Below are positions 1 to 64,000 of a stretch of 64,000 nucleotides of DNA, one piece after another. Position 1 is the first letter of the stretch. Each line of letters begins with the position of its first letter. A program made the translations under genes and the position numbers. The stretch covers positions 2,581,373 through 2,645,372 of the forward strand of contig CAJINV010000009.1 in the NCBI GenBank assembly GCA_905178155.1, in the 5' to 3' direction. This DNA is from Amoebophrya sp. A120. Taxonomy: Eukaryota; Protista; Dinoflagellata. The notes beneath the pieces were generated by a model. That model searched no databases and had not been told where the DNA came from. It worked only from the letters and a program-made list of their open reading frames with translations.

Positions 1-3000
1 TCGTCGATCAGAAATCCGAGAGGGCGGTGTCCCCTCCAGAAAACACCCCTCCTCCCCTAATTCGTCCACGAGAACCGAAGTCCTGGTGTCAGAAAAAGGA
101 GTGAAGGTTGACCTAATGGTATACCAATGTCTGATATAAATCCAGAAAACTGAAAAAATATCCAGAAATCCCAGCCGGGGCTGTAAATGAATGTATGAAC
201 GATGAATATGAACGAGACCGATCTTGCTGACGATGCTTTCACTCGAAATATTTATCCCGTAAACATAAAACTCTGTGTCTGTCATGCAAGAACTGGATGG
301 GGATTGGTTTTTTTCTGTGGATACGTTTCTCCCGGCGCAACCTCGTTCCCGTAGATGGAAAGTTTCGTCCAGTGTCGCAGATCCCGCCAGATTATAGCGC
401 TCTCAAGCGTTACACTCTCAACTGTTACATGAATATGTAATGCAAGTAGAATGGCAAAAGTGAAAGGAAAATGAAAAGGTTGCGCCTTTTGCATTACAGA
501 TTTGGAGCAGATTAAAATGCTATCTAGCGCGTCGAGAACTTGTCACGCGAAGCAGCTTCATCATCATCGTCATCATGTAGTGGACACCCGCTCCCAGCGC
601 CACAGGTCAAGGATCCCCTCCCCGGGGGGTGGGCAATTTTGCATGGCAAATTCATGTAACAGCTGAGAATGTAACGTTTGAAAACCCCATACCGATCGCG
701 TTGTGTTTCGGCGCTTCGAGCAGTTCCGCAGTAGATTCCACAATCGGAGTCGCTAGGTGGATCGGTTCAAAAAGCGCTATATTGATTAACGGCGGTGACG
801 CACACCAGTTGCAATCATGCATGACAGATCTTCTCTGTGTATCAATATCATGCATCCTAGGCTAGACAAATTTGAGCAACATCAAAATTTCCCACGCGCA
901 CTTACTGCATGCCAAAACGACCCGTTATTAACGCTAACACTTTTTGGTTCTATGATAAGGTGGATCATCAAGTCAAAATTCCCGATGTTCTTGTCTTCGT
1001 GCAGAAACTGTAAATATCCTGTGCAAAAGTGTCGCATGATTCGTATAAATGTATTACAAATTTCCCCAGCATGAGAAATAAAATTTGTAATGCGAATTTA
1101 GCTTGAGAACAAGATTTGTAATGCATGTTTGCGATTACTACGAGTACGATACCTTTGCACAGCATAGCAAGGTCCGCGCGACAATGGGGGTGGACGGCGC
1201 TAGCGGCTCCAGGATCGCGAGGACCCCGGGCTGGACATCATTTTTTCCAGCCGCATTTTCATCCTTCGAGGAAAAAATCTTCAGCGTTCGCTTCGTGTCC
1301 CGCGCTATCGCCTCTTCCCAGTCTGTATCAAAGGCAAAAATGTCTGGGTCTGGAAGAATGCACGACTTGTCATGCTGCTTTTCCATGACCCATGGGGTCT
1401 GGAATGCAGGACCTAGCATGACAGATTCTGTGCGATCTCTCTCAAGCCTATCCTGCATGAGAAAGTCCCTCCCGACTTGGTCAAAACTGGACGACTTTTG
1501 GATTTTTGCATGCTTCAGATTTAGCATGACAAGGAAGTTGCAATCTTCCAGACCCAGACATTTTTACATTTGATAGTCTGGTCTTTTTCCCAACACCTCC
1601 ATAATCTGGGGCGTACAGGGGAAGGGAAACACCGTGCCAATGTTTTCGTGGGGTTTTTTTCCGTAGTTTTTCGTATTTTCATTCGAGGAAGCTGAAGATC
1701 GAGACCCAGACGTCGCAGTTGCTGATGTGGTGTCGTAATTGCTATCGCTGGAAGATGCTATCACGATGTCGTGGTTTCCCAAAGACGTTACCACACCGTT
1801 GCACACGACAAACCTACCAGTTTCCTCCAGGATGGTTTTTGTAGAAACCCGCTCTTCGGCTTCGTCATGTTGAGCATCGGATTTCAGCGAATCCTCGCCA
1901 GCACCTTCACCTTGTGGTCGCGTATCAATGTGTTTCGCGAAGAACTCCGTTACATTCGGGAAATGGATCACGGACACTGCGCCGCGGGTTGGAGTGCTGC
2001 TGGCGCCGCTCGTCAGCATCTCGGCCTGTTCGTCGTGTCCTTCGGCGGCCGCGGCTCTGTTGTTCGACTCTAATTTGCGCAGAAACCGAGCCCAGTTCTC
2101 CGTGTTTTTCCCGACAACAAACACCAAATCTTGGTTTTTGGTGGTGTTTTGCCTCATCGTTTCTACTTTCGAGGACGCCGTGCTGGGAGAAGTGTTCTTG
2201 GTGCTACTCGTGAGGGTCGTCCACCAAGAGGAAGAGGACTCAGAGTGATCCACTTCTTGTCGTCCTTCATCTTCCCTTATCCACAGTAAATAATTTCCCG
2301 TACGCGCCGTACTGATGCGGTCCCTGCATGACAAAACGAAAACTCGGCTTCCATACTAGTTCTTTGGCATGGCAAGTGTTCCACAACTTCAAATTGGCGA
2401 ACTTTGTCTTGCATGTTGTACATGTACGGGAAATTTGTATTGCGTATCCCAATCGAGAAGTTGTACTTCCCAATTTTCGTTCCACAAGTCCGCGGAGTAC
2501 TCGGTCGCGTTGAAGATTTCCACAAAGCTGGTAACTATGACCCGCTCAGGCACTACAATCTCAAACATATACAATAGTGTCGCGCATGATCCGCATGAGA
2601 AAAATACCGAGCCTCGCGGCTTACGCAACACAAGTTTCGCGGGATTTGAGTGGGGTCTTATGTAGTTCCGGAACTTGTCATGCGCAATCCTGTTGGAGTA
2701 GTTACGCCAGATGTTGCGCAGTGGCATTTTGCAACACAAATTCACGCCTCTCTTGTTCGTAACGTTTGAGATTGTTCGTAAGTAACAGACCTGAGCACGC
2801 CATAGTAATTCCGTGCTTTTTCTCTTCCTGGATTAACGGCACAATGCCCCCGCTCAGGTGCAATTTCGGCTCGATTTTCGTGAAACTCAGCCCATTATCA
2901 AATACAAAAGTGTCTGGGTCTGGAAAAATGCAAGTTTGTCATGCTTGTCTGGCATGACTCGAGAATCTGTGTTGCATAGGCACGAAGCGGCCCTCTTACC

Positions 3001-6000
3001 TGTCATACAAAAGCGCAGTTTGCCATGCGGAATACGTAAGACATGGACGCCAGAAAATTTGCCATGCGTAGCTGCGAATTGCAGTGCGTCTATCATTCAC
3101 TTTTAGCATTACAAGTTTCCAGACCCAGCCATATTTGCCATCCATACCCATCCAAGTTCGAGTAGACCAAGGGGTGGTAGAAGTGCGTCTTTTCCGCTTG
3201 CCTGGCCACCAGCGAGTAGGTGCTCAGGGCCCGGCATGAAATGCAAAAGCATCGCACTCGTATAAATGCATTACAAATTATTTCCTCAGCATGAGAAATA
3301 AAATTTGTAATGCAGAATTACCTTAACAAATTTTTGTAATGCATGATTGCAATACAAGTTGATAACTTTTGCACAGGATACCCGGGTCGGCACGGACTGT
3401 AGGACGGTTTTCGCCGACAGCGTGTGCTGCTTCGATTTCTTGCGGTTATGAATTGCAAAAGTATCGTACTCGTAGTATTGCAATACAAATTAGCTCAGCA
3501 TGACAAAGGGAATTTGCCATGCGGATTCAGCCTAAGAAAGAGATTTGTCATGCATAAATGCAATTACTACGAGTGCGATACTTTTGCACTGGATAGCGGT
3601 CGGAATCCTGCAACTGCCTCGACTCCATTTTCGCTTCCACGTTGGTATGGAAGTGTCAGGATCGAAATCAACAAAGTTGTAATGCATAAAATGCAAGCCA
3701 CAAAGTGCCTGTCTTGCAGAGTAGGCAAGTGAGGCAGATTGTATAGCCTGTGGAGGGGTAGGAATAACGCTGCTGAAGTAGCATGACAAAAGGCGTCTTC
3801 CTTAGCCAAACAGCATGACAGACTGGATTTAGGTTCTAAGTACCCGAATTTGTCATGCTCCATTTGAAAACTGGGCGCCAACTGGTATCCGTTTTATGCA
3901 TCACAAATTACTTATTTCAACTTTGTCGATTTTGACTCTGACGCTTCCATAATTAGTGTTTTTGGTGTAAAACCCCTCGTAGATCAGTCCGTGTGCGAAA
4001 ATCAGGGGCAAAGAGGACTGGGAGAAGGCGGGCAGGAGCTGGGGAAGCAGTTTCTCCTTCAGTTTCGAGAATTGTTCTTTTGTCGATGATGTCGAATCTT
4101 TTTTGATACTGTTCTTGTTCTTCGACAACATCTCTACTGCTGCTCCACCACCAGCTGTTTTTATCGAACTTTGGTAGAAGTCGAAACCACTGTGGATAAA
4201 CCCCGCGTCAAACAGGATTTTCCGACTGCTCGGGAGCCCTGGATTTATTGCGTTGTCGTGGTCCTTGCTTCCTCCACCATGTTCAACATCTACTCCGGTT
4301 GATGCACGACTCCCACTTGCTGCACTTGCCTCCGCGGAAGCTATGGTCTCCATCAGTTTCTTTTCCACCAAACCAAGCATGCCTTTGCCGGCGTACTTGA
4401 GCTGCCTGAAAAGATTCCCCTTCGTGAAGACGGATATGGAAGTGTCAGGATCGAAATCAACAAAATCGAAATGATTTGTAATGCATAAAATCGATACCAG
4501 TTGGAGCCTCAGTTTCCAAGTAGCGCATGACAAATTTCGGGAGCACCAAAATCCACTTTGTCATGCTGTTTGGGCAAAGAGGACTGCTCCTGTCATGCTA
4601 CTCTGGCAGCACATCGTCTTCCCCGAAACAGGCTTGGAATCTGTCTCATTTGCCTGCGCCCCAACACAGACCTTGCGCGCCCTACATTTTATGCATTACA
4701 AGTTCGATTTTGTCGATTTCGATCATCCTGACACATCCATAATGGAGAGGAGCAGCTTAATTTCCTTCAGTTGATTCTTCTGCAAGATAGACTTTTCCAG
4801 CACGCTGTCCCCAATCCGCAGGCGCGGCTGCAATTCGTCCACCTCCTTCTCCATCTTGGCCAATTCCGTCCACAGCTCCCTGCTGTTCATCAAATCGGTG
4901 AGAAAAACACGCAGGATATTGCAAGGAAAGATCCCCCCTCCCCATATTGAAAAGAGCACGCCCTTCCGAAAATTTGTTATGCAGATTCGTGACCACGCAT
5001 CCTGTCTGTCTTGCCAGAAGGCAAAGCCAGAGAGTCCGCCGCGATATGCAGGCGGTTTGTAATGCTGCAAGGCCTAGAGGGCAGAGTTCTGCCATGCTAG
5101 GCCCCTACACCAAAAGGCCCCCCGTTAGGCTTGCGATCTGCGTGCAGTGCTTTTTTGCAAGACAGATGTGATTTGTGTACACAAATCCCGCATCACAGGA
5201 GATTCCCGCAGTTGTAATATGGGGAGGGGGGTGGATTTTTCATTTTGCTAGAGGAAAACGGACCGCTTCGTCGCGGAAAAATTGGAGCGGTAGCCCTTCA
5301 GCGCAGGGGGGAGCGTTGCAATGGCCTCCTCGCTAGTAGTACTCTCCTCGGCAAGACCTTTATTTTTCATCGCGACGCCGGCGCCGCGGGGAGCAGCAGC
5401 ACTTGCACTTGGTGAAGATGTAGAGTTCTTTATTTCCGACGTTTCAGGAACTACGACTGCTGGCTCCGCGTGCAGAATTTCCAGAATGCTCTGCACGTTG
5501 CGGTTCACCGAGAAGAGGTAAAATGTCCCCCGGAACGCAAGGAATTCCAAAATGGTTTTCAATTGATTTTTATCCTGCGCAAAAGTTGTATCCTGCCCGC
5601 ACTAGTTGTAGTATTCTGCATATACAAATTTCATCTTCAGCTTGATGTTGAGATGAAATGGACTTTGTGATGGTGCGTAATAATATGTACGCGTACGCCG
5701 TCGTGACTGCAATTACTACAAGTAGTACCAAGATATGGCTTTTGCAAAAATGCATAGTTTTTGTCGAAGGGGTCAAAGACCATATGAGCTGTGTTGGTCA
5801 CCGAGGACCGCCCGGTGGAGGTCGCCATTGAAGACGTCGATGCAGAAGAATTTCTACCTTTCTTTTTCTTGTTTCTGTTCTTTCGTCGGCTTCTTTTGCT
5901 CCTGTTTCTCTTCCGTCTACCGCGCTTTTTCGAAGCCACAGCCTCTTCGTCCGAGTCGTCATCCTGGTCATCTGAATATGCATTGCAATCGTAATATCGA

Positions 6001-8710
6001 GTAGTAATCCTAGCAGACATGCATAATATACAAATCGAAATCCTATTCTTAAGGTAAATCAGCCACACAAATTTTCCTTTTCACGCTGAGGAAATTTGTC
6101 ATGCGGTTTACACAACTATCACTAGTGCGATACTTTTGCAATGTATACTGAAGAGTTGTCTTCTTCATCCGAGTCCTTGCGGTCCTCTGCGTGATAGCCT
6201 ATTCTGAGTAAAAACATCCCCGCCCCAGAGTTGTCATGCAAATCTGCATGCCAAGAATGTTTCTCATGCGGAGCCCCATGCGAAGCGTTTCGCCGTCGTG
6301 TTTCGGGCTTCGTGATGCTCGAATCAGCATGGCAATATGCTAAATTTGTGTGATGCTGCTGGAGCTAGCTAAACAGGATTGCACTACGTGGCCAAATTTA
6401 TCATGCGAAACAACCAAAGCTGGCTGATTTGTCTAGCAGATTTCCCATCTTGACTCTGGTGTGGGGATCATGTTTGTACATAGGATATAGCCCCCGTCAT
6501 CCTCATTTACGTGCGACTTTTCCACAGTGGAAAGTTCATCCTGTAGAACAAGCTTCACTGTCGGCGTCAGTTTCATCTTTCCACCATGATCTGCGGGAGA
6601 AGTAGTAGTGGCTTCATGATTTATGGTGCCCTGGTGTGATGTTCTTCTACTACCGGAGTTCGTCAGCTTTTCGAACAAATGTTCGTGATCGAACTGCGCT
6701 GATTTCAACTCCGCGTCTTCCTGTCGTTTCCGGTTCTGCAGCCATTCTCTGGTCCAGTTGTTCTTGGCCATGATCTTTCTCGCGTTGTTCAACTTGTGGA
6801 GCCGGAGCAACACTTTCCGGAGAAACGAGTCATCCGGGGAATTCAGAAACGGGACCGAAATATGCTCCCCGGCGATCCAGACCAAGCTCTTCGAGGTGGG
6901 GGAAGACGTTTGTTCGCGGTGAAACTGCCGCGCCGAGTGGTCGGTTTTGCCGTCCAACGCTTTCCTGCGCGCAAGGACACCGTAATGGGGAATCTTCTGC
7001 ATAAGCTGCTCGACGTCATCAGTGTCCTCGTCGATGCCCATGGTAGAAACAGCCGCAGCATTTTTGCCCTCACCATCAGCATCAGCCCCCACAAACTGGT
7101 CCACCGTGTACTTTTCCAACCCGAGCTATGACATGATTCTCAACCGTTTTTACATTCTCAATTGTTGCACGATTTTCCATGCAGAATCATCATCAGCACA
7201 CACAACCACGATTGAATTGCTTCGCATGACAAATCGTCGAAGGGCCCAGCAGAACGATTGAAGATGATCTGTTCCAAAGTTGTAACGCGAGAGGGGGCGC
7301 AAGCTCCCCCTTTCTTCACTTTTCCTATTCTTGCGTCAACATAAATCCATGTAGCGCCAGCAGTTGAGTGTGTAACGTTTGAGAATCTTCCAACCATACG
7401 AACGTGCCGATCCCTGCCAGAGCGCCGCGGTACTGGGGGAAGTTCGAGGTCATGTTCACGAAGAGCTGCAATCTTTCGAAATCTGACAACGCTTCTTTCC
7501 TCGCCCCCCTCGCGGTTTTTATGTGGTTCACGAACCGGTAAACCAAGGCGGAAAGCTGTCTGTTCGTCAGCAGCACGTCCGCGGACCCCGGCGACACCGG
7601 GCCTGACGCATTGTCTAGCGCGTTGTCGGTGAGAAGTATCCCATAGAAAAAAACAGCCCGCCGGGCATCTTTGTCACGCAAAAACAGATTAACAGAAAAA
7701 TCTGTAGTCATGGGCGAGCCGGTAGCGCGCTGTCGAGGATATGCATGGAAATAGATATTTGAATATCATTTATTTTTACGCATACAAATATACCCGGCCT
7801 GGTGACTTTCTCCGTTGGATAGCAAGTTTATCGTACTCGGAAGATTTGGGCCGGAGTTCGACGGAGTAACCAGCAACCGGCTCGGAGAGAAGAAGGTCAT
7901 TAACGTCCTGGCCCTCGTTAATATGCTGTGTCTCATAATTATCCCCGTTCTTGCTGCCCGTCGCGCTGCTGGTGGTTGTGGTCCCCGCTCCTGTTCGTGT
8001 TCTTGCACTACCAGTCGAAGCATTCGACCGTCTGCCCACAGCTGGCTCCTTCCGTTTGATGGTCAGGTCGTCGAACAAGCGGTGCGCGCGGGCTAGCGGC
8101 TCAAAGTGCTTCTCAAAAGTAGAAACCGCGAGCTCAGGATCTTCCGACGTTTTTCTGTTTCTTGTTGTAGTGCTGGAGGCACTAGTATAATTTTTCGTGT
8201 AGTCTTGTTGTGCGAGTTGTAGTGGTTGCAGCGGCTGCAGCACCTGCTCGTGGTCCCCTTGGTGCATACTACTGCTCCTCGTTCTATCTGCTGCAAGAAA
8301 CCGGCTTTTTACACTCACAGCCACGTCGATTGCGGCCACAGGGAAGAAAAGTTCGGCGAGGCACAGAAAGTAGAGGAGTTATGCATTGCAAAAGTATCAT
8401 ACTAGTATAAAATGCATGACAAATTTGCTCACCAACAAAAATGCAATTTGTAATGCTGTTTTCCCTTAGAAAGTAGATCTGTCATGCATGACTGCAATTA
8501 GTACGAGTACGATACTTTTGCACTTGATAGGAGTTTCTTCAGGACAATGTTGTTCTTGTTGTGGCCTTTGAGGTGCTGGCTCCGGCGCCAGAACCACGTT
8601 GAACAACTTTGGTTTGGGAGATTTGGAGGAGGGGCCAAGAACGACCGTGGTGGCCCTCGTTCTCTTCCTGCTGGTTCATCTGCCGCAAGAACAACTCGAG
8701 GCATTCGCAT
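1..8710 (-). CDS. Large multi-exon hypothetical protein with an N-terminal hydrophobic anchor (gene 1); 3' end uncertain
   Basis: ORF fragments join in frame when each TIR element plus one 5-bp DR is removed, e.g. ..KKLL|YFLCLAELFFPVAAIDV.. and ..VARTL|QFLHEDKNIGNFDLMIHL|ATPIVESTAELLEAPKHNAI|WRDLRHW.. About 18 introns; no recognisable domain. Confidence 0.7.
253..323. mobile_element. Short degenerate introner, family J
   Basis: TATCCCGTAAA...TTTTCTGTGGATA; the end resembles the family J TIR at 11425; DR unclear. Confidence 0.5.
393..691. mobile_element. Introner family C
   Basis: TIR TATAGCGCTCTCAAGCGTTACA / TGTAACGTTTGAAAACCCCATA; DR CAGAT/CCGAT. Confidence 0.85.
760..957. mobile_element. 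Introner family G (degenerate left end)
   Basis: DR AGGTG on both sides; removal restores the frame (MIHL|ATPI). Confidence 0.65.
1015..1166. mobile_element. Introner family A
   Basis: TIR TATCCTGTGCAAAAG / CCTTTGCACAGCATA; imperfect DR. Confidence 0.85.
1326..1575. mobile_element. Introner family B
   Basis: TIR TATCAAAGGCAAAAATGTCTGGGTCTGGAAG; perfect DR GTCTG. Confidence 0.9.
2278..2446. mobile_element. Introner family E
   Basis: TATCCACAGTAAATAATTTCCCGTAC / GTACGGGAAATTTG; DR TCCCT/TCCCA. Confidence 0.8.
2667..2804. mobile_element. Truncated family C-like introner
   Basis: Only one TIR end is intact (..GCACGCCATA); DR GTAGT/GTAAT; removal gives KARNY|IRPH. Confidence 0.55.
2896..3146. 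mobile_element. Introner family B
   Basis: Family TIR; perfect DR CCCAT. Confidence 0.9.
3235..3380. mobile_element. Introner family A
   Basis: Family TIR; perfect DR CCCGG. Confidence 0.9.
3447..3595. mobile_element. Introner family A
   Basis: Family TIR; perfect DR GCGGT. Confidence 0.9.
3646..3951. mobile_element. Introner family D
   Basis: TIR TATGGAAGTGTCAGGATCGAAATCAACAAAG; DR GTTGG/ATTAG. Confidence 0.85.
4435..4741. mobile_element. Introner family D (opposite orientation)
   Basis: Family TIR; DR ACGGA/ATGGA. Confidence 0.85.
4917..5250. mobile_element. Introner family K (single copy)
   Basis: TIR core CCCCCCTCCCCATATT / AATATGGGGAGGGGGG; DR CAGGA/GAGGA; removal gives RSVFL|RVFLTD. 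Confidence 0.75.
5571..5756. mobile_element. Introner family A (diverged)
   Basis: TATCCTGCGCAAAAG...TTTTGCAAAAATGCATA; DR ATTTT/GTTTT. Confidence 0.75.
5977..6147. mobile_element. Introner family A (diverged)
   Basis: Perfect DR CTGAA. Confidence 0.8.
6200..6487. mobile_element. Introner family F
   Basis: TATTCTGAGTAAAAACATCCCC...TAGGATA; perfect DR TAGCC. Confidence 0.85.
7127..7398. mobile_element. Introner family C
   Basis: Family TIR; DR CGAGC/CGAAC. Confidence 0.8.
7730..7793 (-). other. Canonical GT-AG intron (64 nt)
   Basis: GTATAT...GACAG joins ORF 7776-8339 in frame to ORF 7325-7711. Confidence 0.65.
8380..8529. mobile_element. Introner family A
   Basis: Perfect DR GGAGT. Confidence 0.9.
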
Positions 8711-10125
8711 TATATAAATTTCGGTCAACATATTATGTTGACCGCTCTAAATTATGATAATTTAGAGCGGTGTCCTGCACCTCAGCGTGATTGAAAAGGT
8801 AGTCGAGTCGGAACTTCTAGTCGATTATGTGTAGATCTAGACTTAGACCACAAGAAGAAGTCTTTGATGTCGCTAACGCTACTCAACTAGTTTTCATATC
8901 TTAATCTTCCAGGAGGTTTGTTTCTTACGACCTTTGGCGCATTTATATGTGCCCTTGAAAAGTAGAACAGCATCTTGCGCAGGCATCCGGGAGGCGCCTA
9001 GTACTGTTCATATGTACTTACGATGTAGCTCCATACCATGATCTTCGAAGATCAAGAATAACAAACTACTGCAGGAGCGTCGAGAGCAAAAGCAAAACGT
9101 AAACAATGATCATCGTGGCCAATCCACCCAATGAGAAAAATGTCCTTCATATAAAATCCATCTTCCAGATGATCAGAATGGAACGACTGGAGTAAGTACC
9201 TCCAAAATCAAAAATCACGATCTTCCGTGCTGCATAAGTCGCGACGATCTTCCTACATGCTGTTGGCATCTGCTGATAGAGGACACGACTTTGTCGACAG
9301 AAAAAGCGGTCGCCCGTGCTAGATATCACGGCGAAAAGAAAACAAGAAGAACCAACCTCCGAAGTAGGATCTGGATCGCCATATCCTACACATAAGTCAC
9401 ACCGCCCGTCATGCGGCGCTCTCGTGGGGACATCTAGATGCGGCGGATGTCCGCAAAAACAAATAAAAACAAAAGTGCTATGGAAATTCGAGCTTGAGCT
9501 ACTGGATGTTGAACCACAAAGACACAACAAGGGTACCGCGCCTACTAAAAAATTCTGCGAGAGAACAAGATCTTCCAGCGTCCAGTTACTTTAGCTTTGA
9601 TTTGGTGAGTAAAGGTAGGCACAACATCATCCTCAAAAAGGAACAGGAACCGCTCTTCCCGCCACTTCTCCTTCTCGTTCCGTCCTCTGCTTCTAACTTC
9701 GCAAGCACGGTCGGAAGAACACATCAGAACAACTTTGAAAATCTGAGATGAAAACGAAAACGCGCAACCACATAAGGGTTCATCTCCAAGCGCCTGAAAA
9801 AGAAAACTCCTGGTAGGTGAAGGCGAGGTCGTGTCGTAATTGGTTGAGATTGCTATTGCAGCTTCTGCTTCTGGGGTCTTCCTGAGTCATATGATACAGC
9901 AAGAGTTTATATCTCTAGGCATGATCAAGAAATACGATGTAAATCGATCTTGACAACCAACCCGCCTACAATATCAAATTTACAGCCAACAGTAGATTTT
10001 GGAACCGCGCTGCGCGGTCATTTGTAATTGTATTTACAGTCTTCTTGTATAATCGCTATCGCTTCATAACCAAAACCACTCCCCGGCGGATTTCGTCGCC
10101 CTGGTGTCGGCAGGTCGGCATCGAC

Positions 10126-12194
10126 GTTAGATATCGGTCACGGAATATGCATTGCAAAAATGTCTGGGTGGTCTGGAAGATTTCGACACTTGTCATGCAC
10201 GCTTTGCATGAGCCATGATGTCTGTGATGGATGCCCTAGCATCACAGACGTTTTTCGGGAATCTTGATGCCTGTTCCGCATGACAAATGCCCTCTCCGCG
10301 TAGCAAAAATCGCATTCCCTTTCGTGCTCATGCAATACAGATATTTTTGGAATCCACATGCAGCATCACAAGTTCAAGTTGCATTCTTCCAGACCCAGAC
10401 ATTTTTACATTTGATACGGAATGTGATACGTCCATTCTACCGTACCACTCGTCTATGGCGTTCTCAACTGCTAATACCTTCTCAACTGTTCTTGCATATT
10501 AAGCTTGTGATGCAAGACCTGGAAAAGTGAAAGGGGGAAGGTTCTTGCACCTGTAGCATTACAAGTTTCGCACAGATTTAGGCGAGGTTAAGGTTATTTA
10601 GGCCTTCGCAAATTTGTTATGCGGACGAGCAGCTTGATCGTGAGGATGCTAATGGTGCTTTTGCGTGACAAATCCATGTAAGAACAGTTGAGAATGTAAC
10701 AGTTGAGAATCCCATATCGTCCACACGCAGCATTTGAGTGTCTCCGTCGTCGTAGGACCAATATGTTCCTATAGAGGGAATGAAGCGAGTGACTTTATTA
10801 TAGGGAGTGCGGGACCAAACGGTTAAAGAAGCTAAAAAAAGCTCACTCGCCGTCCCCTCCCATACAGAATTACGATGGTGTTTATTTGCACTGCAAATAA
10901 AAAAAGAAGGCCTAGTGAACTCAGCTCTACGCAATCAGGTGTGATTCTTGGTAGCTGCTTCGCAATCGCATCTTCACAATAAGAGCTGCACATTATTTGG
11001 GCCTTTCCTTATCATCTTTTGTTATGAATAGAAGGTCGTCTTTTACATCTACTACTAGTAGAGGCCAGCAGCATCTTTCGGGAACGTCACTCGTTTCATG
11101 ATCCCCTCCATTATCAAATGCAAATATGTCTGGGTCTGAAAGAACAGAGATTTTTGTCATGCTGTTTTTGCATGACGCAGAAGGTCTGGCATGGACGCCC
11201 TAGCATGATCACAGGTCTCGAGACGGTTCCGCGATGCCTAATCCGCATGACAAGTCTCCCATTTTGGTTACAGGAAGTGGGCGTCTTTTTCTGCGGCCTA
11301 TGCATGAGAGATTTGTGTGTGTTATGAAATGCGCATTACAAGTTCGAATCCTTCCAGACCTAGACAGATTTGCATTTGATATCCATAGGCTCACCACTCC
11401 ATCGCAACCGCCTTGATCTACCTTTATCCACAGAAAAAAACCCATCCACATCCATTTTTTCTTTTTGCATGACAAACACAAGGAAGGATTTTATGTAGGT
11501 TTTGCATGGCAAATTGGATGCGGATGGGTGTTTTTTCCTGGATAGCCTTATGGCATATCACACGGAAAAGGACAACAAGGAGTACACCAATACGACCAAA
11601 AGCAAAAATATCATCTGCTGAATTGGCGCAGTTTTTTATAAATATCAATTGCTCTTTTCCTCATTTCTTTTTCTTGAGCTTCATCAGGCTCTGGCTCAGC
11701 ATTACAAAACTGCGCGGTACTTTGACGACTATGATCTTCCCTTTTCGGAATTACGAATCTCCCTTCTGCATGGCATGTGTTCGTGCAGTCCGCTCTTATT
11801 GCGGAGCAGCATCACAATGTTTTTTGTGCCACAGAATTTCGAACAATTCATTTTCTTTCTTGCAAGGGTGTACTACTTACCTACTTGTTTTCCCTACGGT
11901 ACCTTCGCACTTAAGCTTGTCGTTAAAGCATTCGTGCCAGTATCCATGAGGCAGGGTGCGCTTGCATGTGACGGCCGCCTTCTTCGTCCCCTCTTCCAGG
12001 AAGGCACTGGGATCGTCCGGCTGGACGAGAACATCATTTTCGCTTTCTTTATCTGCTTCCAGCGAAGCATGCGTAGATTTTTCACTCGCAGGCTGGGTAG
12101 TTGTCGCCCCCGCGTTCATCACGTTTTCCGCAAGTAAAATCAGGCTGGCGGGGGACGAGCCAGCAGCGACTTGCGTCAGCACGAGCTTCCTCAT
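10126..12194 (-). CDS. Possible multi-exon hypothetical gene (gene 2); model unresolved
   Basis: Four introners cluster here; the 3' part splices to GTYWSYDDGDTQMLRVDE|WYGRMDVSHS|VTDI*; upstream exons could not be joined cleanly. Confidence 0.35.
10146..10416. mobile_element. Introner family B
   Basis: Perfect DR CGGAA. Confidence 0.9.
10454..10716. mobile_element. Introner family C
   Basis: Perfect DR TCGTC. Confidence 0.9.
11112..11381. mobile_element. Introner family B
   Basis: Perfect DR TCCAT. Confidence 0.9.
11425..11544. mobile_element. Introner family J
   Basis: TIR TATCCACAGAAAAAAACCCATCCACATCC / GGATGCGGATGGGTGTTTTTTCCTGGATA; DR ACCTT/GCCTT. Confidence 0.85.
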
Positions 12195-18339: not shown

Positions 18340-21300
18340 CTACATGATCGCACACTCCCCATCTTTGCCTCCCGGCGGCATCTTTCCGTATCCGTTCTTA
18401 CCGCGAAATATGAGAGTACACAAATCCCCACCCGCAATCGTGACGCATGGGGAGCAAGAGAAGCGCCCGCACAGAAGCACGACCTCTTGCATGACAAGAA
18501 ATGAGCACAGGACCACTCTGGTCCTACAAATTTGGGCATTGCTGGAACCTGTCATACAAACACCATCGAGAAGAGGGAGCCAGAGAGAAAAAGAGACTGA
18601 GCTTGGTGTGGTGCATGACAAAGGAAGTAGGGGGAGGGTAAGGTGTGTGTTCTCATAGTGAACTGTCGACCGTTGCTCGTCGGATTAGAGGTGGATACCC
18701 GCTTCACTCCGACTGGGCTTCCGCCAGCAGTAGCACCATCACCTTCAGCGCCGCACTCCCGCGGACTCGCGGTATGAAATGCAAAAGCATCGTACTAGTG
18801 TACATTCCATTACAAGAAATTGGCTTTAGCATTATAATGCGGATTTGCCTTCAAAAAAAAATTTGTAAATGCATAAACGCAATCAGCACGAGTACGATAC
18901 TTGTGCACAGGATACGCGATCGGGCTGGGCAAATCGGCGGGGACCGGTAACTATCCATTGCAAAAGCATCGTATCTATTTGGGAGGAAGAATCGCGGGAC
19001 ACAAAAAAATTTGAATTTCAACTGTGTGCTCGCTTCTTTAGGCGAGCGAGTGACTGTTGTACGTGCTAATTGAGTTCCTGAGAGTAAGTGGCAGGCAAGC
19101 TGTGTTTCAACAATTTGCCACCAGAACTTGACTAAAAAAAACACCCGCTTTGATGTCGAACAGCCAAGACTGGGGAGTTGCCTCAGAAAAATCGCACCGG
19201 GATGCTCTTAGTCCTTGGCTTCAGGCGGGACTAGCACTACCTCCTCATCCGTGCTAGCCCTACCAACCTCCGCGCAGCCACGAGGTCCAAAACAAGCCGC
19301 CTCTGCTTGCCCTTCCTCGTGTCCAACAGGATCCTCAATGCTGGCAGGTCCTAAGAGAGCCTCCTCTGCTCTCCCTTCCCGTCAACATCACCGTAGCCGA
19401 GGCTTAAGCGATGGCACGCAAACGCCACCAGGAGACACTGGAAAACACGAAGTTACACCCAGCATCGCCCAGTTGCCTTGCCCCTAAACCCTTCCTAACC
19501 CTATTAACCCTTTCTTATTGCTCATCCTTGCGGATTTGTCGCAGAGCTTTCTTTATTTTATTTTGCGATCTTTATTTTTTTTTTTTCCGATTCAAACAAA
19601 TTTGCCTTCAGGGGACCATGGTAATGCCGGTGGGTGTGGATCTGGTACAGCTGTTCTCGCCTTGTGAAAGATGGGGATCTGGTTCGTGATCTTGTATAGA
19701 ATTTTGTTACCGCAGATGAACATCGTCTGCCTTCATCCGCCACTGCAACTAACTGGCGCTCTAGCTGTATCAGCTGTCGTTTCGCACGGATCCAGCTTGC
19801 AACTGGGTCTTGTTCTTCGGACAGAAGTGTAGCGCAGGGTAACTGGTATCCAGATCTTTGACACGGTAGGAGAAGAAGTTAGCACAGATCTTCAGACGGT
19901 AGTGTGGAGCAGAAAAAAAAAAAAAACTATTACTCTGATCTTCAGCACGGAACCGTGAGAATATCGACCGAGGAAGCTACAACCCCCCTCCACCTTATCC
20001 ACCTACTTCTTCCGCGCCTTGCGTGTCCAGTTTCCTTCTCTTTACCGCCTCCTTCGCATCTCGCAGCCACTGTTCTGGAATAGTAGCAGCTTCCTCCTCC
20101 CGTGTGGGTTTGTCGCTTATCGCACTGTAGGGCCACCCGTGACCCAAATCTATTTTCTCCTCTGGCTTCTGGATGGCGTCCATCAGCCTATTTCAAGATA
20201 GTCCAAAAATTTGAATTTCAAGATAGAAAAAATGAAACTACTAAAGCTCGCACACACGCAGGTTCTGGGTTAGGTCAAAAAAAGATGCCGAATCTGTCAT
20301 GTCAGTGTACAATTCGACGTACCAATACGATACTTGTCTATTTGCAGTGGATAGCAACTTCGCGGCGGCCGGACTCAGACCCGCGACGGAGCTGCAGGCC
20401 ACGATATGGATGTGTCAGGATCGAAATCGACAAAATTGAAAAATTTGTGATGCATAAAATGCAGGGCACTGGAGGCCTGTATTGGGGAGCAGGCAAATGA
20501 GGCCGATTGCAAGCCTGTTTAGGGGAATGCAATGCCAATGCGCTGCCAGAGTAGCATGACAGGAGCAGTCTTCTTGTTTGCCCAAACAGCGCGATAGACT
20601 GGATTTGGGTGCTCCCGAAATTTGTCATGCGCCACTTGGAAACTGAGGCCCGAACTGACATCGATTTTGTGCATCAAAAATTTTTCGACTTTGTCAATTT
20701 CGATTCTGACACTTCCATACACGACGGGAGAATCGTCGGACTGGACCGGGAGGACTGAAATTATGTGCAAATATGTCTCGGTCTGAAATTGAAAAGTTGA
20801 AACTTGTTGTAATGCTAGCGCTACATTCCAGGGAACTCTGTAAGTATTGCCAAACAGACTGCGCTACCGAAGATAGTTCTGTAAATGATTGGGAAACGCG
20901 GCCGCTTCATCTTGCTACATCAATGCTATACCGTCTTCTCCCACAAGAGCGCAGAAGCCACCCCCTATCCTGAACAAAAAGAACGTCGCCAGCACCCCAG
21001 GGTTGTCAAGATGGGACTTTGGCAACACAAATCAACAAGTTTTGTAACTGCTACTGGTACTGTTACGCATTACAAGTTTGGGGTGGTCGGAGTCGTGCGC
21101 ATTTGCATGACAACTTCTGGGTCGTGGGGGCCACGCTTTTACACAGGATACCTCCGCTCGCCGAATCATGCCCGTTCTCAAACAGGACGTTGCATATGGC
21201 ACTCTCAAACGTTACACTCTGAGCTGTTACATGATTTGTCATGCGAATTTACCACCAAGATCGCCACGGTTAAGCTGCTTGGCATGACAAATCTCGGAAG

Positions 21301-43090: not shown

Positions 43091-43133
43091 TCGTGCACAG
43101 GTGTCGAACAATTCTTCTTTTTCAGCGTGTTAC

Positions 43134-57313: not shown

Positions 57314-58376
57314 GTCTGATGAAGTTGAAGAAGATGATGAGCCACTTGTTGACAACATCACAAACACAAACTCCGTTCAAAAGTAAATTAATTAAATTTT
57401 TATTTCACCATCATCTGATGCATATGCAAGTCCTCGTTGAGGAAAGAAAACCAAAAGCACAACTAAGCCTTAGCGGAAATGTCATCGAAAAACAAGAGCG
57501 AGAAGTCCAAGAGCCTATCATTATGCCTGTCGTGATGTCGGAGTGTTCAGTTGGCAAACACGTTTAATAATAGCACTTCATCATCGAACCCCGCGAACAA
57601 GTCAAAGTAGAGCTTTTTCAGTTTTTGATCGAATGTAACAAACACAGCAAACAAGTTACAGTTAGTATGTAAGTACTTATTCTCCATTGTATCTCCGTCG
57701 AGTATGACTAGAAGCACTTCTCCGGCTTGTACTAGAAGATCTTCTTCATCGCTTGATCATCACAAAGGTAGAGCCTGCACATTGCGGCGTGCATGGACGA
57801 TCCACCACCACCAGAAAAACCACATCACAACTTCTACTTCTACTTGTGAAGATCGCCGAAACAACATCAGAACAAGGCCAGGAGCGCGATCGCTTTTCAT
57901 ATTCTCCTTCTATCCAGCCGCCGCCGTATTACAACTTCTTCTATCCGGCCGCCGTATTACGCTTTGTAGTTACGCAGTATCAGTAACACTCGGCTTCGTG
58001 GCAGTTTCGTTCTTTCAAGGATATTAGTGAGACGCCACTCGCAGGATTCTTCTCAATTAGAAAGGATAAGGAATCAAGCTACGTTCTTGTGGCCATAAAC
58101 TACTTCCATGATGATCAAGATCAACAGGGAGCAGCGTCGCTTTCATGTCCGACGAGATGTCTTCAAAACACAGCATAGGTACGGTGTCGTGCGCTGTTGC
58201 TTTCTGTCGAAGAGCGAATTTGTTACGCATAGGTTGCTCTTGCGATGTCGAAGATAATATTTCTTTTTCTATCCGTAGAGCTAGAAAGTGGAGATAACTA
58301 TTGAGTTTGATGAATTGAAGTTCTAGAATCATAAGCATGACGATTGTAAAGAGGTCGAGCACTTGTTTCATAATAA

Positions 58377-61300
58377 TCAGGCTTCTTCAGGCGGCAGGCG
58401 CAGTGCCGAAAGTGGATCGTAAAACTTTTCTTGCGCGGCCCGAGGAACCACACCAGGTATCAACACCTTACCATCGTGCTGCTCTTCTTCATTTACAATG
58501 GGCGGCAGTGCAGGACCTGCCGGTGACCACAACTCCTGCTGCTGCGCATAATCTACTTGCTCCCCACCGGCCAGCGCGACGCAGGCCCCATGATCATCCG
58601 CCAACATCTTCATTCTGCTTTCGTTGTAACACCGGTCGAGAACTTTCTTGAATTCCAAAAACATCGCGTCCATTCTTGCCTCGTATGTCGCGGCCAGCGA
58701 GTCCGGCAGTTTTTTCGTCGGTCTTCGGCCGCAGTACTTCGATTCATTCCAGTAAACGTGCGTGGCGGTGACCGTGACAAAAAACAACCCGCTCTGCGGC
58801 TTATGCATTGCAAACTTATCGTACCTAGCATGCGATTGCATCACAAATTTTTTCATCACAATTTTATCAAGGAAGAAAATGCAATTTGTAATGCGAATTC
58901 AAATTGCATTTCCATTTGTCATGTATAACTGCAATTTCTATTGCAGATACGATACTTTTTCTTTTGCGATGCATACGGCTCCATAAACACCCACCCCGGC
59001 ATGTCCGGGTCGCCTTTCTCCAGAATTGGGGCCTTATTGGGGCCGATAAGCAGGTTGTTGCTACTCGAGTGATGTGTTGCGCTTGCACCAACACCAGCTG
59101 CGGGAGAATTATTCGGGGATAAGTCCCCGGTTTTGGACCGGTCATCATAGAAGGAGCCTCTAGCTGCAGTTGCGCTGTGCTGATGTTCCCGGGTGCGTCC
59201 TCGAGAATTATAGATGCCGGAAGTGATTTGCTGCTTGGAATTGCTCGTGGCAGAGCGGAAGGGCACAAGCAAATCCGGCGTTTGCTGCGGTATAGCTGAG
59301 TGGTACAACTTTTGGTCCAAAAGCTGTTCTTCGCTGTTTGTCTGAAGATTCTGTAACAACCCCGCTGTGGTCGCACCAATGGTGCTGCTGTTCGCTGAAG
59401 AGGTGTTGCCGCCAATCGTATTAAGTAGCGGGGGAAACAATCCATCGTGGTCGAGCTGCTGGATGTTTGCGTTCGTCCGCGTGTTATGAATTGCAAAAAT
59501 GTCTGGATCAGCAAAGTTAGAGCTTGTAATGCTGGTCTTACATTCCTGTGAGATCTGTATTGCATGACCAACAACAGTCGCAGCCTCTCTCGTCACACAA
59601 AAACGCAGTTTCTCATGCGGAGTGCGTATGAGGAAGCGTTCTGCAAACTTGTCATGCTCTCCTCCATGAGGGACCGTTTTCGTCATGAACATTTTACCAT
59701 CACAAATTTCCAGACCCAAACATATTTGCAATGGATACGTGTCTAGATTCAGTGACATCACCGTGCTGTCATTCGGGGTAACGACTTCCTTGGAGTTCGA
59801 TCCAGAAGCACTGACATTACCGGTGGAGTACTGGTCCTGCAAATCTTGCTCGAGAAGTTGGGCTGGGAGTTGTAAGGCATTATTTTGTGCTGACACTGAC
59901 TCGTCGTCCGGACGCGAGATGATTGGATCGTCCTCGACCCCTCTCCCGACGCTAGCAGGAGGACCAGCAACTGGAGCCGCAGAAGGTCCTCCAGAATCTA
60001 CCAATCCAGGTTCTTGTGCGGGAGGCGTAGAAGTCGTGTTTATCAAATCCACACCCTGAACAATTATCCCTCCGTCTGTCAAATGCTGGTTTTGCCGAAT
60101 GGCCTCAAACACTGGTGTGGCTTGCGTCCCTCTTGGTGCTGGGGTGGTAAGCTGTCGCAGGTCCAATCCACCGAGCATGGGCACGGCGTTGTCGAAGTCA
60201 AAGAGGTTATCTTGTTCTCGTGCAGGAGATGTAGTTGATCGGCCAGCAGTTTCTGTTTCTCCCCCGGAAGCTACAAGAGGAACATCAGGGGCTCCAGCAG
60301 ATCCAGCTACACCAGCCTGCGCGACAACCGTCTCCCGTCCCCTCGCGCCGATCATATCAACACCGCCATATTGGTTTGTATCCGTGTCGATTACTTCCAA
60401 AGTTTCTCTTGCTGTCACAAGGTCGTCCTGCTGGTCGTTGATGTTGAGATCTACTCGCTCTCCGTATGATACAGGTTGTACCACCGAGGATGTCCCTCGC
60501 AGCACACCAGCGACACCAGTAATGCTGGTCGTCGGGAGACCGCTTCGAGACCTACTTTGCGATAGCAGGTCGCCACCCGTCTTCGAAGAAGTAGCAGATG
60601 GCAACAAGGCTGCCTTTGCAGATTTTCCGCTCCCGCTCTTAGAAGAACTACTTGTCGCCCCATAGTTGTAAATCAACAGTAGATTCAGTGGTGGCGACAA
60701 CAACATTTCCACTAGCGCTGCGTACCCGATCCTCTCCGGATATGGGGTTCTCAAACGTTTACACTCTCAGCTATTACATGATTTGTCATGCAAAACTGCC
60801 ATAAGCAGCCGCACCATCAAGGTGTTCTCGAATGACAAATTCTCCAATGGCTAAACAGCACGGTACTACGTTCTAGATTTGCAATGCAAAACGCGCAATA
60901 TTCCCGCTTTCGCTTTTGCTGTTTTAGCATCACAAATCCATGTAACAGTTGAGAATTATTTAACATTTGAGAACGCCATACCGGAATCCGCATCCCCAAC
61001 CTGTGGAAAAAGGGCGGTCTTTTGTAAACCAAATCTTCCACCTGCTTCTGCATGTAGTTCCGCAACAAATAGAACGAGGATTTCGAGGTGAAGAGGAATT
61101 GCATCACTTCCATATTCGCTAACTCCTGTTCGTGCTCGTCCCTTTGCTGTTTCAGTTTTATCAGTTCTAAATGTTCCTCCGTTCCGTATTTCAGCTTGTT
61201 CAGCTGCTTGAAAAACTTCTCCGCACACCGCTGGCTCGGCTGCTATGGCGTTCTCAACTGTTACATGGTTTGCCATGCAAATTTACCACCAAGATCGCAA

Positions 61301-64000
61301 CAATTAAGCTGCTTCGCATGACAAATATCCGAAGGGCTAAGCAGCATCTAAATCTGTGGCAAATCTGTAATGCAAAATGCGCGATCTTTCCCCTTTCACT
61401 GTCGCCATCTTGCATTGCAAATTCATCTTCATGTAGCAGCTGAGAGTGTGACAGTTGAGAACGCCATAGCTGCGGGAAAACTTGGGAGTGCGGGACGGTT
61501 TGGAGGAGGAAGCCGTTTTCTGATATGGATGTGTCAGGATCGAAATCGTCAAAGTCTACATAATTTGTAATGCATAAAATGCATGACGCGAGGCGCGTGC
61601 ATTGCAGAGCAGGCAAGTGAGGCCGATTGTAAGCCTGCTTGGGGCTAGAGCTCGAGCTGCTAAAGTAGCATGAGAAAATCAGTCTTCTTTGCCTAAGCAG
61701 CATGACAAACTGGATTTAGGGACCGCCAAAATTTGTCATACGCCATTTGGAAACTGGGTTCCAACTGGCATCCATCTATATGCATGACAAACTAGTATTT
61801 CAACTTTGACGATTTCGATCCTGACACTCTCATATCTGAGGCGGAGTTGACCAAAAACAGCGTGAATTTCGCTGCGCAGATGTTGCTGCAGAGGATCCAT
61901 TCTAGGGACAAGTGAAATGGATTGTCCGGGTGGTAGTGGGAGTCGAGCTGCAGTTGGATCCACTCGTTTGTAGTAGACGCTGGCTGTTTATGCATTGCAA
62001 ATATGTGTGGGTCTGGAAGCATGCGAACTTGTGATGCGCATTTCACACCACAGATAAATCTCTCATGCATAGGCAGCAAAAGGCGCCCGCTTCCTGTCAC
62101 CAAAATGGGGGATTTGTCATACGGATTAAGCAGTGCGGAAGCTTCTCGAAATCTGTGATGCTAGGGCTTCCATGACAGACATTTTGTGTCATGCAAAAAC
62201 AGCATGACAAAAATCTGCACTCTTCCAGACCCAGACACTTTTGCATTTAATACTGTTTTCGTGGGACTGGTCGGGTTGATGCTGGAACACCGTTGTTCGC
62301 CGCGCTTGCCGCAGCAAAAGCACCACGCTGATGCGTAGTTCCAGTCGCCGCACCACCGGGAACATATCGACCGGAGGCGGCGCCACCAGTGCTCGAATGT
62401 AAAGACGCCGTGGGGGAAGTTTGCCCCTGAAGATTTGGGTCTCCAACACCCCCAGCTGCACGATGTTGATCCCTAGAAGTTGTTGTAGTTGTCCCTTGAG
62501 GATGACCTCCTCCCTTTGCAGCAGTAGAACTCACCTGGATATTGTGCCACGTTCGCATCCACCGAACCGGAATCTTCGCAGTCTGTCTTGTAATCTTCGA
62601 AGATTTCGTACTGTAGCCGATTCTGTATATCGTTTGTGGTTTGCCCTTCTCAAATTCTTCCTCCTCCTCATCGCTCCTCAGCACGGTCGTGCTGCCAATC
62701 GTGCCTTCCGTGCCCGTCGTCGCTGACCGGAGACGGTTCTCGGTTAGGGGAGGGTGGGTCGGAGGAACTATTGTTCCAGAAGATCGTACACCTCCTGCGG
62801 CGGACGAGTCTTGCTTGTGCTGTTCCTGGTGATCGAAAGCTTCATCATCTTCCGCAGTAAAATGAAAAATCGCTTCATCCTCATCATACACCTTCGGCAC
62901 AGAAATCGGCAACGAATACCGACTTTCCTCTTCCCTCAAAGCCGGATTCGACGCGGCGAGGATTGACGGTTTCTTCTTCGTATGCAGTGCAAAAGTATCG
63001 CGCTCGTACTACTTAACTGCACTAATGCATTAGATATTCCGCATCGCAAATCTAATCTGTAACGCTGAGCCAAGTTGCATTGCACGTTTATACTAGTACG
63101 ATACTTTTGCAATTCATACTTCGGCGCATTTGCGTACAAATAGTGCTCGACTTGCTTCTTCCACGAATCAAACTTCCGGATCAACCGCTTCCTCCTTTTG
63201 TACTCTTGAACGGCCGCGGGAATCGACTTCGTCTGGGGGTAGTTGCTGTGGAGAGAGTAGGCGTCGTCGACGAGTTTAGTAGAATTTTGATGCGTCTTGA
63301 TGTTCTGGTGGCCTTCTTGCTCTTGAAATTTATTGGTATTTTTACCACCCCCGTCAGCTCCACCTGATGTTGTTGACACAGACGCTGCGAACGGCCACTC
63401 CCCCACGGTTAACTTCTTTTTCACTTTTCGCTGCTCCAGCTTGTCTTTTTCGTTTATCGGGACAAGGACAAAAACAATCGACCGGAGCACCGAGCGGAGT
63501 CGATACCAGGGAAAATTCTGCTCGGTGGCTTTCTTACTGGCAAGGGACAAGCTGGAGGCAACAGCACGCGACGTAGCACCCTCTCCAAGTAGGTCGCCGT
63601 CACTGCCGACGAAATTCTTTTCATACAAAAACGCCGGCGTCGCTGCTGGCATATGGGGTTCTCAAACGTTCCATTCTCAACTGTTGCATGAATTTGTCAT
63701 GCAAAAATACCATTATCATCCACAAGACCAAGCCGCCTCGCATGACAAATTTGCGAAGGGCTACTAGGCAGCACCTAAATCTGTTCGGGATTTGTGATGC
63801 TACAGGCGCAACCTTCCCCCTTTCACTTTTGCCATTCTTGCATCACAAATCCATGTAATCGGTGAGAATGTAACAGTTGAGAACGCCATATGGCAAAGGG
63901 TGTGCTTGGGACACGATTTGGTCCACTGTGTTCCACGGGATGACGTCCGGTTGGCAGAAAGTCAAATGCAAATGTGTCTGGGTCTGGAAAGTTGGAACTT
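58377..64000 (-). CDS. Probable DEPDC5/IML1-like (GATOR1) protein, C-terminal part; 5' end outside the window (gene 9)
   Basis: Spliced EWIQLQLDSHYHPDNPFHLSLEWILCSNICAAKFTLFLVNSASE|NGFLLQTVP and GWVFMEP|QSGLFFVTV..HVYWN resemble the DEPDC5/Iml1 C-terminal domain (from memory). Confidence 0.55.
58802..58975. mobile_element. Introner family A
   Basis: Perfect DR CGGCT. Confidence 0.85.
59485..59737. mobile_element. Introner family B (in frame, stop-free)
   Basis: Perfect DR CGTGT. Confidence 0.85.
60741..60980. mobile_element. Introner family C
   Basis: Perfect DR CCGGA. Confidence 0.9.
61244..61468. mobile_element. Introner family C
   Basis: Perfect DR GCTGC. Confidence 0.9.
61524..61834. 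mobile_element. Introner family D
   Basis: Perfect DR TCTGA. Confidence 0.9.
61989..62252. mobile_element. Introner family B
   Basis: Perfect DR CTGTT. Confidence 0.9.
62981..63118. mobile_element. Introner family A
   Basis: Perfect DR CTTCG. Confidence 0.9.
63652..63890. mobile_element. Introner family C
   Basis: Perfect DR TGGCA. Confidence 0.9.
63961..64000. mobile_element. Introner family B, left end only (cut by the window edge)
   Basis: TCAAATGCAAATGTGTCTGGGTCTGGAA. Confidence 0.75.

What the first reader, a model, noticed from the sequence alone, without database searches (positions are those of the whole stretch)
1015..63890. Same element families sit in both orientations within same-strand genes: symmetric excision, possibly at DNA level
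Seen: the family B copy at 1326-1575 (TTTTCCATGACCCATGGGGTCTGG) is roughly the reverse complement of 33431-33701 (CCAGACCTCATGGGTCATGGAAAA). Family E 2278 vs 36832, family D 4435 vs 3646/20405 and family C 393 vs 60741 are also inverted. All host genes are on the minus strand. Established: spliceosomal introns are directional (5' site, branch point, 3' site). Inference: removal depends on the terminal stem. It could be an RNA hairpin-guided cut and ligation, or precise DNA excision leaving one DR, analogous to ciliate IES removal by domesticated transposases.
Basis: partly seen in the sequence, partly recalled or inferred. Interest (0 to 1): 0.85.

Follow-up and report, generated by a model that had tools for sequence, protein, structure and literature searches.

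The report
Two-way transposon introns of Amoebophrya
These are the known transposon-derived introns of the marine parasite Amoebophrya A120: they sit either way round in genes, stay in the DNA and are missing from RNA-like contigs, and their identical ends are likely read directionally, one likely as the splice start and the other possibly as the branch site.

Summary
Observation confirmed; interpretation only partly. The window encodes proteins 100% identical to Amoebophrya sp. A120 gene models. The elements are its published introner elements (PMC7789003): TAT…ATA inverted ends with 5-bp duplications. All five quoted pairs are inverted. Families lie near 50:50 to host strand in 314 elements from the window and a second assembly. 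DNA excision is not supported: DNA contigs run exon-element-exon at background depth, while RNA-like contigs lack element+5 nt exactly, including a family D pair in opposite orientations. Removal is not symmetric. All informative junctions fit one register, N-TAT…ATA-NNNN in transcript sense. The third inverted-repeat base is mutated 12 times at 5' ends and 0 times at 3' ends (n=273), equally in both orientations. There is no G·U excess in the stem. Orientation is free because both ends carry the same sequence, as in Polarella introners. Likely mechanism: a relaxed spliceosome using 5' N|TA and an A at −7 (inferred, about 50%); stem-guided cut-and-ligation is the rival. The scan's notes held only a different MITE-intron case, in another genome.

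The parts
324..8746 (-). Host gene 1 (A120 model P0001, residues 1-1101 in the window; the C-terminal part with a Glyco_transf_24 domain lies beyond the left edge)
   Evidence: 1399-aa frame over 885-8746 after removing 16 elements+5 nt
393..691 (.). Family C element, orientation 1; imperfect duplication, needs at least 4 upstream bases kept
760..957 (.). Element with altered transcript-3' end (ATC), perfect duplication
1015..1166 (.). Family A element, orientation 1
1326..1575 (.). Family B element, orientation 1; absent from RNA-like contig (piece edge at 1575)
2278..2446 (.). Family E element, orientation 1; transcript-5' end TAC
2536..2804 (.). Singleton element; wholly inside a DNA contig at depth 45.5, inside the exact 1320-nt RNA gap
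2896..3146 (.). Family B, divergent subgroup
3235..3595 (.). Two family A elements (3235-3380, 3447-3595), orientation 1
3646..3951 (.). Family D element, orientation 1; RNA-like contig resumes at 3953, so 2 to 4 upstream duplication bases are kept
4435..4741 (.). Family D element, orientation 2 (inverted to 3646), same gene and same RNA-like contig; at least 4 upstream bases kept
5977..6147 (.). Family A element, orientation 2, same gene as the orientation-1 copies
7127..7398 (.). Family C element, orientation 2, same gene as 393
10146..10716 (.). Elements B 10146-10416 and C 10454-10716; RNA-like contig length 423 equals removal of both+5 nt
11617..11902 (-). Canonical GT-AG intron (3' end approximate), also skipped in the RNA-like run
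20405..20719 (.). Family D element, orientation 1
30882..37997 (-). Host gene (A120 model P0003): 13 single elements, 2 canonical introns, one merged double, two unresolved junctions
32478..32756 (.). Element whose gene model allows at most 4 upstream duplication bases
33431..33701 (.). Family B element, orientation 2 (inverted to 1326); removed in the gene model as part of a 511-nt intron with its neighbour 33712-33935
34943..35194 (-). Canonical GT-AG intron between elements of the same gene
36462..36745 (.). Family F element; gene model allows at most 4 upstream bases
36832..36985 (.). Family E element, orientation 2 (inverted to 2278), removed +5 in the gene model
59102..63388 (-). Host gene (A120 model P0002) with 6 elements, all removed +5 nt
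60741..60980 (.). Family C element, orientation 2 (inverted to 393)
253..63890 (.). Whole set: 82 listed elements, about 18 kb (one, 253-323, is probably only one end of a longer element)

Best explanation
The elements are Amoebophrya A120 introners, non-autonomous DNA transposons with TAT…ATA inverted ends and 5-bp duplications, that stay in the DNA, are missing from RNA-like contigs, and are likely cut out of the pre-mRNA by a relaxed spliceosome that would read the 5' end as N|TA and likely use the A seven bases before the 3' cut as branch nucleotide. Shown: both orientations occur in the same genes; element+5 nt is what is lost; the DNA keeps them. Inferred from seven junctions: the removed piece is N-TAT…ATA-NNNN in transcript sense, starting one base before the 5' repeat and ending four bases after the 3' repeat, whichever way the element faces. 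Inferred: orientation is free because both ends carry the same repeat, so the transcript always presents N-TAT first and ATA-NNNN last; the end-to-end stem would hold the two sites together and replace GT-AG recognition by geometry. Confidence by step: RNA-level removal about 0.95; transcript-directional recognition about 0.85; spliceosome with the −7 A as branch about 0.5.
For: DNA keeps the elements: eight listed contigs of uniform-depth run X1 cross exon-element junctions at depth 40.0-47.8, four of them spanning whole elements, against 44.1 for a 7.3-kb mostly element-free contig. RNA-like run X3 (0-0.45 depth over 13341-16675, and skipping a GT-AG intron): record 9 has 360 letters where the genome has 1680, exactly six elements+5 nt; piece edges show B 1326 and D 4435 absent too; record 12 is 423 nt, exactly two elements+5 removed. 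Gene models: 35 of 40 junction rows are single elements+5 nt, 2 canonical, 1 merged pair, 2 unresolved. Register: at least 4 upstream bases kept at 393, 4435, 35682 and 34247; at most 4 at 36462 and 32478 and 3646; none conflicts with 4. All nine most frequent A120 non-canonical sites in Table S4 of PMC7789003 have T as second base, as N|TAT predicts. Directional conservation in 273 filtered elements: repeat position 3 altered 12 times at 5' and 0 times at 3' (p=0.0005); positions 1-2 altered 2 and 10 times; Fisher p=7e-5; 6:0 in each orientation; 8:0 in the second assembly alone; control T sites 184 of 1353 against 189 of 1355. Precedent: Giardia 5' site VTATGTT with a fixed branch-to-3' distance and long-range pairing (PMC6679479, passages). 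A120 keeps 83 of 89 spliceosome proteins and U2, U4, U5, U6 (PMC7789003 section 10).
Against: No lariat, branch or inhibition data. No GT or AG preference at the inferred cuts: 107 of 316 start GT and 24 of 316 end AG. No directional conservation around the −7 A (repeat positions 4-24), so no U2-type branch motif. Predicted canonical introns show no significant A at −7 (6 of 20) or −8 (10 of 20) against a 39% background. U1 snRNA was not detected in A120. The register rests on 7 junctions, and both gene-model upper bounds start with GT, which a predictor may favour. X3 is RNA by guess, and contigs drop rare variants; 1697 joints were not shown. The directional signal rests on 24 altered elements, and host strand for 59 of the 273 was carried over from neighbours (direct calls alone: 10 vs 0 of 214).
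Confidence: 0.5

Rival explanations
1. A spliceosome-independent RNA pathway: a nuclease recognises the end of the stem with 1-nt 5' and 4-nt 3' overhangs, cuts, and a ligase joins the exons, as suspected for euglenid nonconventional introns. It would still be directional.
For: No GT/AG preference and no branch motif; ends predicted to pair in both orientations in 11 of 11 folded elements (expected pairs 8.4-13.6 of the first 15 nt in sense); U1 not detected; euglenid introns have offset stems (+4..+6 with −8..−6) and leave as circles (PMC11282704 section 6).
Against: No G·U over A·C excess in the stem in transcript sense (234 vs 227, 95% interval 0.46-0.55), though long stems may hide such selection. 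The terminal changes run against pairing: A-to-G at −7, which would keep a wobble pair, was seen 0 times, while T-to-C/G/A at its partner was seen 12 times. The two most conserved 5' bases match the spliceosomal +2 U and +3 A.
Confidence: 0.33
2. Spliceosomal removal, but the −7 A is not the branch; it is a protein- or snRNA-contact base, and branching is elsewhere or heterogeneous.
For: No motif flanks the −7 A; −7 is very close to the 3' cut; canonical introns show no such A.
Against: No other transcript-directional conserved base was found in the first 24 positions of either end; short fixed branch distances exist in diplomonads.
Confidence: 0.14
3. Programmed DNA excision before transcription, as for ciliate internal eliminated sequences.
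For: Transposon-like ends and loss of one repeat copy resemble it. A staggered DNA cut centred in the 5-bp duplication could also give the observed register. Only one deep DNA run was laid, and its life stage is unknown.
Against: DNA contigs hold the elements at background depth; a second DNA assembly also holds them in place (236 of 314 elements overall have perfect duplications); end conservation follows transcript direction, which a symmetric transposase-type cut does not predict; GT-AG introns sit in the same genes; the published study validated these introns by RNA-seq on the genome. No germline-soma nuclear split is known to me for Amoebophrya (recalled).
Confidence: 0.03

Closest known systems
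Amoebophrya A120 introner elements (Farhat et al. 2021, PMC7789003)
   Same: Same strain by protein identity; inverted repeat starting TAT, about seven looser bases, then a run of A; 3-5 nt direct repeats; hairpin proposed; 29,850 elements reported, RNA-seq supported.
   Different: The text and supplement text I searched say nothing of element orientation, a fixed register, a branch point or directional conservation, and call the splice position variable or unknown; figures were not visible to me.
Polarella glacialis and Aureococcus introner-like elements (10.1101/2020.10.14.339549; passages)
   Same: Inverted-repeat transposons that make introns in either orientation, with splice sites in the duplication or the element end.
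   Different: They recruit G(T/C/A)-AG sites and have biased target sequences and orientation; here there is no GT or AG preference and most families are unbiased.
Euglenid nonconventional introns (PMC11282704, section 6)
   Same: Non-canonical borders, terminal stem offset from the cuts, duplication-like repeats, likely MITE origin, mechanism unknown.
   Different: Stem at +4..+6/−8..−6 with pyrimidine|purine borders, against +2..+4/−7..−5 and no border preference here; circular products are shown there and untested here.
Fritillaria borealis non-canonical introns (PMC11282704 section 6; 10.1101/2025.08.15.670264 passages)
   Same: Transposon-derived non-GT/AG introns handled by a modified U2 spliceosome.
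   Different: They have preferred borders (AG-AC, AG-AT); here the first and last bases are free.
Giardia/Trichomonas spliceosomal introns (PMC6679479; passages)
   Same: 5' site VTATGTT with a relaxed first base, fixed branch-to-3' distance, long-range pairing.
   Different: A conserved branch motif and terminal AG, both absent here; not described as transposon-derived in the passages read.
Ciliate internal eliminated sequences (recalled)
   Same: Transposon-like ends; one repeat copy left.
   Different: Removed from DNA of a separate somatic nucleus; here the DNA retains the elements.

Membership tests
Amoebophrya A120 introner elements | Organism is Amoebophrya A120 | tested here: met
   3 of 3 protein searches gave one hit each, 100% identical, named Amoebophrya sp. 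A120
Amoebophrya A120 introner elements | Inverted repeat beginning TAT, then looser bases and an A run | tested here: met
   end consensus of families A, B, F, G; families C and D share TAT but lack the A run
Amoebophrya A120 introner elements | 3-5 nt direct repeat at the borders | tested here: met
   perfect 5-bp duplication in 236 of 314 (the boundary search favoured matches)
Amoebophrya A120 introner elements | Repeated in families | tested here: met
Amoebophrya A120 introner elements | Absent from mature RNA, non-GT-AG borders | tested here: met
U2 spliceosomal introns | GT/GC-AG borders | tested here: not met
   107 of 316 start GT, 1 GC; 24 of 316 end AG
U2 spliceosomal introns | Directional signals: +2 U, +3 A, a conserved A near the 3' end | tested here: met
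   (12 vs 0; 2 vs 10); reading the A as a branch point is inference
U2 spliceosomal introns | Branch motif that pairs with U2 | tested here: inconclusive
   no directional conservation at positions 4-24; canonical comparison not significant
U2 spliceosomal introns | Lariat product, spliceosome dependence | not testable with these tools
   needs branch mapping or inhibition
Euglenid-type stem-guided introns | Terminal stem in the transcript | tested here: met
   predicted for 11 of 11 folded elements
Euglenid-type stem-guided introns | Selection on RNA pairing (G·U excess) | tested here: inconclusive
   234 G·U vs 227 A·C; no signal, but redundancy may mask it
Euglenid-type stem-guided introns | Full-length circular product | not testable with these tools
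   needs RNase R sequencing
Programmed DNA elimination (IES-like) | Element-free genomic DNA | tested here: not met
   DNA contigs at depth 40-48 across junctions; one deep sample, rare or stage-specific excision not excluded

The most novel reading that the evidence does not exclude
Amoebophrya A120 removes tens of thousands of transposon introns by a second, spliceosome-independent RNA pathway that recognises a stem end with a 1-nt and a 4-nt overhang, two bases at the 5' end and one A at −7, making any insertion in either orientation and any target sequence harmless.
Probability: 0.3. Interest if true: 0.85.

Novelty: already known. Interest (0 to 1): 0.42.

Why it matters
The elements and the hairpin idea were published in 2021, but how they are spliced is still open. 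This analysis turns that question into sharp predictions: one cut register in both orientations, conserved 5' TA and a conserved A at −7, which branch mapping can confirm or reject in one experiment. Either outcome matters: a spliceosome that needs neither GT nor AG, or a second splicing pathway in a dinoflagellate. It also removes the case for ciliate-like DNA excision.

Tried and rejected
DNA excision: rejected on depth, with the limits stated. Symmetric removal: rejected. G·U wobble test for stem selection: null. GT/AG drift in the duplications: none. Branch position from predicted canonical introns: 87 candidates, many of them mis-bounded or uncatalogued elements; 20 kept by filter, not significant. 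Synonymy of duplication mismatches (20 of 45 against 24% expected) and a stop-codon test gave no register information. Dropped rows: 5 near-duplicate loci and all loci under 2 kb of the 136 held; 20 of 388 elements with duplication match under 3, and those without a host strand; 2 of 316 (one duplicate, and 253-323), then 41 of 314 by end-quality and duplication filters. No RNA holder was on record for the stretch; the raw-read RNA run X9 gave only 55 partial reads, mostly on repeats, and run X5 was shallow. No whole genome was held. Viral contigs: 0 matches. No Rfam match; raw exons gave only weak Pfam hits in 3 of 27. The second assembly shares no unique sequence with the window, so presence/absence could not be compared. 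The Aureococcus paper was not held. No mention of orientation, register or branch point for these elements was found in literature searches or in term look-ups; subscription papers, figures and bioRxiv supplements were not visible and may hold it.
Full report
What is there. The window is packed with 120-330 nt elements that begin TAT, end ATA, carry inverted terminal repeats and are flanked by 5-bp duplications. I listed 77 by hand and five more from later steps, about 18 kb in all. Three exons searched as proteins each gave a single hit, 100% identical and named Amoebophrya sp. A120. The elements fit the introner elements of Farhat et al. 2021 (PMC7789003; I read the abstract, sections 10, 11, 12 and 32, passages and supplement text, not the figures): repeats starting TAT, short direct repeats, a proposed hairpin, RNA-seq-supported junctions, splice position called variable.

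Orientation. The five quoted pairs are inverted well above shuffles even with the ends trimmed. Window families hold both orientations, except G (4/0). Host genes are on the minus strand (55 of 56 calls, 20 uncalled; gene models). Removing element+5 nt opens a 1399-aa minus-strand frame over 16 elements; removing 2 or 8 extra bases also keeps the frame, so the frame fixes the number only modulo 3, and the value 5 comes from the duplications, the gene models and the contig lengths. A pattern scan found the same families in a second assembly (contigs JACKZZ01, 136 loci held, 491 kb). Orientation to host strand over 314 elements: A 36/40, F 17/15, G 9/10, C 8/9, D 7/4, B 70/45 (p=0.025 uncorrected; B was the search family).

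DNA or RNA. In one search, run X1 has depth near 50 across non-genic DNA. Its eight listed contigs cross exon-element junctions at depth 40.0-47.8; four span whole elements, and a mostly element-free 7.3-kb contig has 44.1. A large element-free fraction would lower or break these. Run X3 is RNA by guess; it has almost no depth over 13341-16675 and skips a GT-AG intron at about 11617-11902. Its record 9 has 360 letters where the genome has 1680, exactly six elements+5 nt, and its piece edges show B 1326 and D 4435 absent; so D 3646 and D 4435, inverted to each other, are both missing from one contig. Record 12 is 423 nt, exactly two elements+5 removed. In the A120 gene models, 35 of 40 junction rows are a single element+5 nt, 2 are canonical, 1 merges two neighbours and 2 were unresolved; both members of the E, C and D 3646/4435 pairs are removed. 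Limits: contigs drop rare variants, 1697 joints were not shown, and one deep DNA run of unknown life stage was examined.

The cut is not symmetric. Where the two duplication copies differ, the kept base bounds the cut. At least 4 upstream bases are kept at 393, 4435, 35682 and 34247; at most 4 at 36462, 32478 and 3646. If there is one register, the intron is N-TAT…ATA-NNNN. This agrees with Table S4 of PMC7789003, where all nine top A120 non-canonical sites have T as second base. The register alone cannot exclude a staggered DNA cut, but end conservation follows transcription. In 273 filtered elements, repeat position 3 is altered 12 times at the 5' end and never at the 3' end, where it is the A at −7; positions 1-2 are altered 2 times at 5' and 10 times at 3' (Fisher p=7e-5). 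The pattern is 6:0 in each orientation, 8:0 in the second assembly, and absent at control T and A sites. Before filtering the count was 16 vs 2 of 316. Pairing alone predicts the opposite tolerance at that position, and G·U pairs are not favoured over A·C (234 vs 227), although ends are predicted to pair in both orientations.

Mechanism. Both-orientation introners are described in Polarella and Aureococcus (10.1101/2020.10.14.339549, passages), and opposite-orientation copies were allowed for in a broad survey (PMC9860276, passages); a later survey lists A120 introners without discussing their orientation in the passages read (PMC12130899). I favour a relaxed spliceosome (about 0.5): 5' T and A match +2 and +3, the invariant A could branch, and Giardia offers a precedent of VTATGTT, fixed branch spacing and long-range pairing (PMC6679479, passages). 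A U1-70K homologue is reported in strain A25 (PMC12787238, passage). Against it: no GT or AG preference, no branch motif, no matching signal in 20 predicted canonical introns, and U1 snRNA not detected. A directional stem-guided nuclease and ligase, as suspected in euglenids (PMC11282704, section 6), stays at about 0.33; a spliceosome branching elsewhere at 0.14; DNA excision at 0.03. Tunicate introners show that a spliceosome can adapt (10.1101/2025.08.15.670264, passages).

Verdict. The system is already known in this strain. I found no statement of two-way insertion, a fixed register or directional conservation for it in the searches made or the term look-ups; figures and subscription papers were out of view. 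These additions make an open question testable, hence interest 0.42. The scan's notes held nothing on this genome or sequence and one different MITE-intron case in another genome.

Noticed in passing
window 33702-33711: Two elements (33712-33935 and 33431-33701) are 10 nt apart. The general rule predicts a 5-nt micro-exon; the gene model instead has one 511-nt intron, two codons shorter and also in frame.
   Followed up: partly
all element families, window and loci: A 9-nt motif (GCATGACAA-like) recurs inside families with different terminal repeats, in both directions: 12.3 per kb inside against 0.33 per kb outside (motif chosen after seeing it). Possible shared binding site for a transposase or splicing factor.
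   Followed up: partly
window 37036-37188: The one filtered element whose 5' T is lost (CAT) is preceded by G, giving a GC start in the inferred register; a single case.
   Followed up: no
window 253-323: Looks like one end of an element; the gene model's next exon is not in 1-252, so the intron probably runs past the window edge.
   Followed up: partly
window 39735-46547 and 51037-57515: Long stretches with few or no elements, partly 56-65% GC, with raw frames of 369-498 aa; a GAS2 domain hit at 45505-46080.
   Followed up: no
window about 18953, 20762, 32146: Lone or decayed element ends without a clear partner.
   Followed up: no
family B, window and loci L001-L079: Orientation skew 70/45 (p=0.025 uncorrected), possibly from the search pattern; insertion phase within codons is also uneven, 59/73/110.
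   Followed up: no
predicted GT-AG introns, window and loci: In a noisy list of 86 candidates, 41 start GTA and 18 of those GTAT, the same letters as the elements' N-TAT start.
   Followed up: partly
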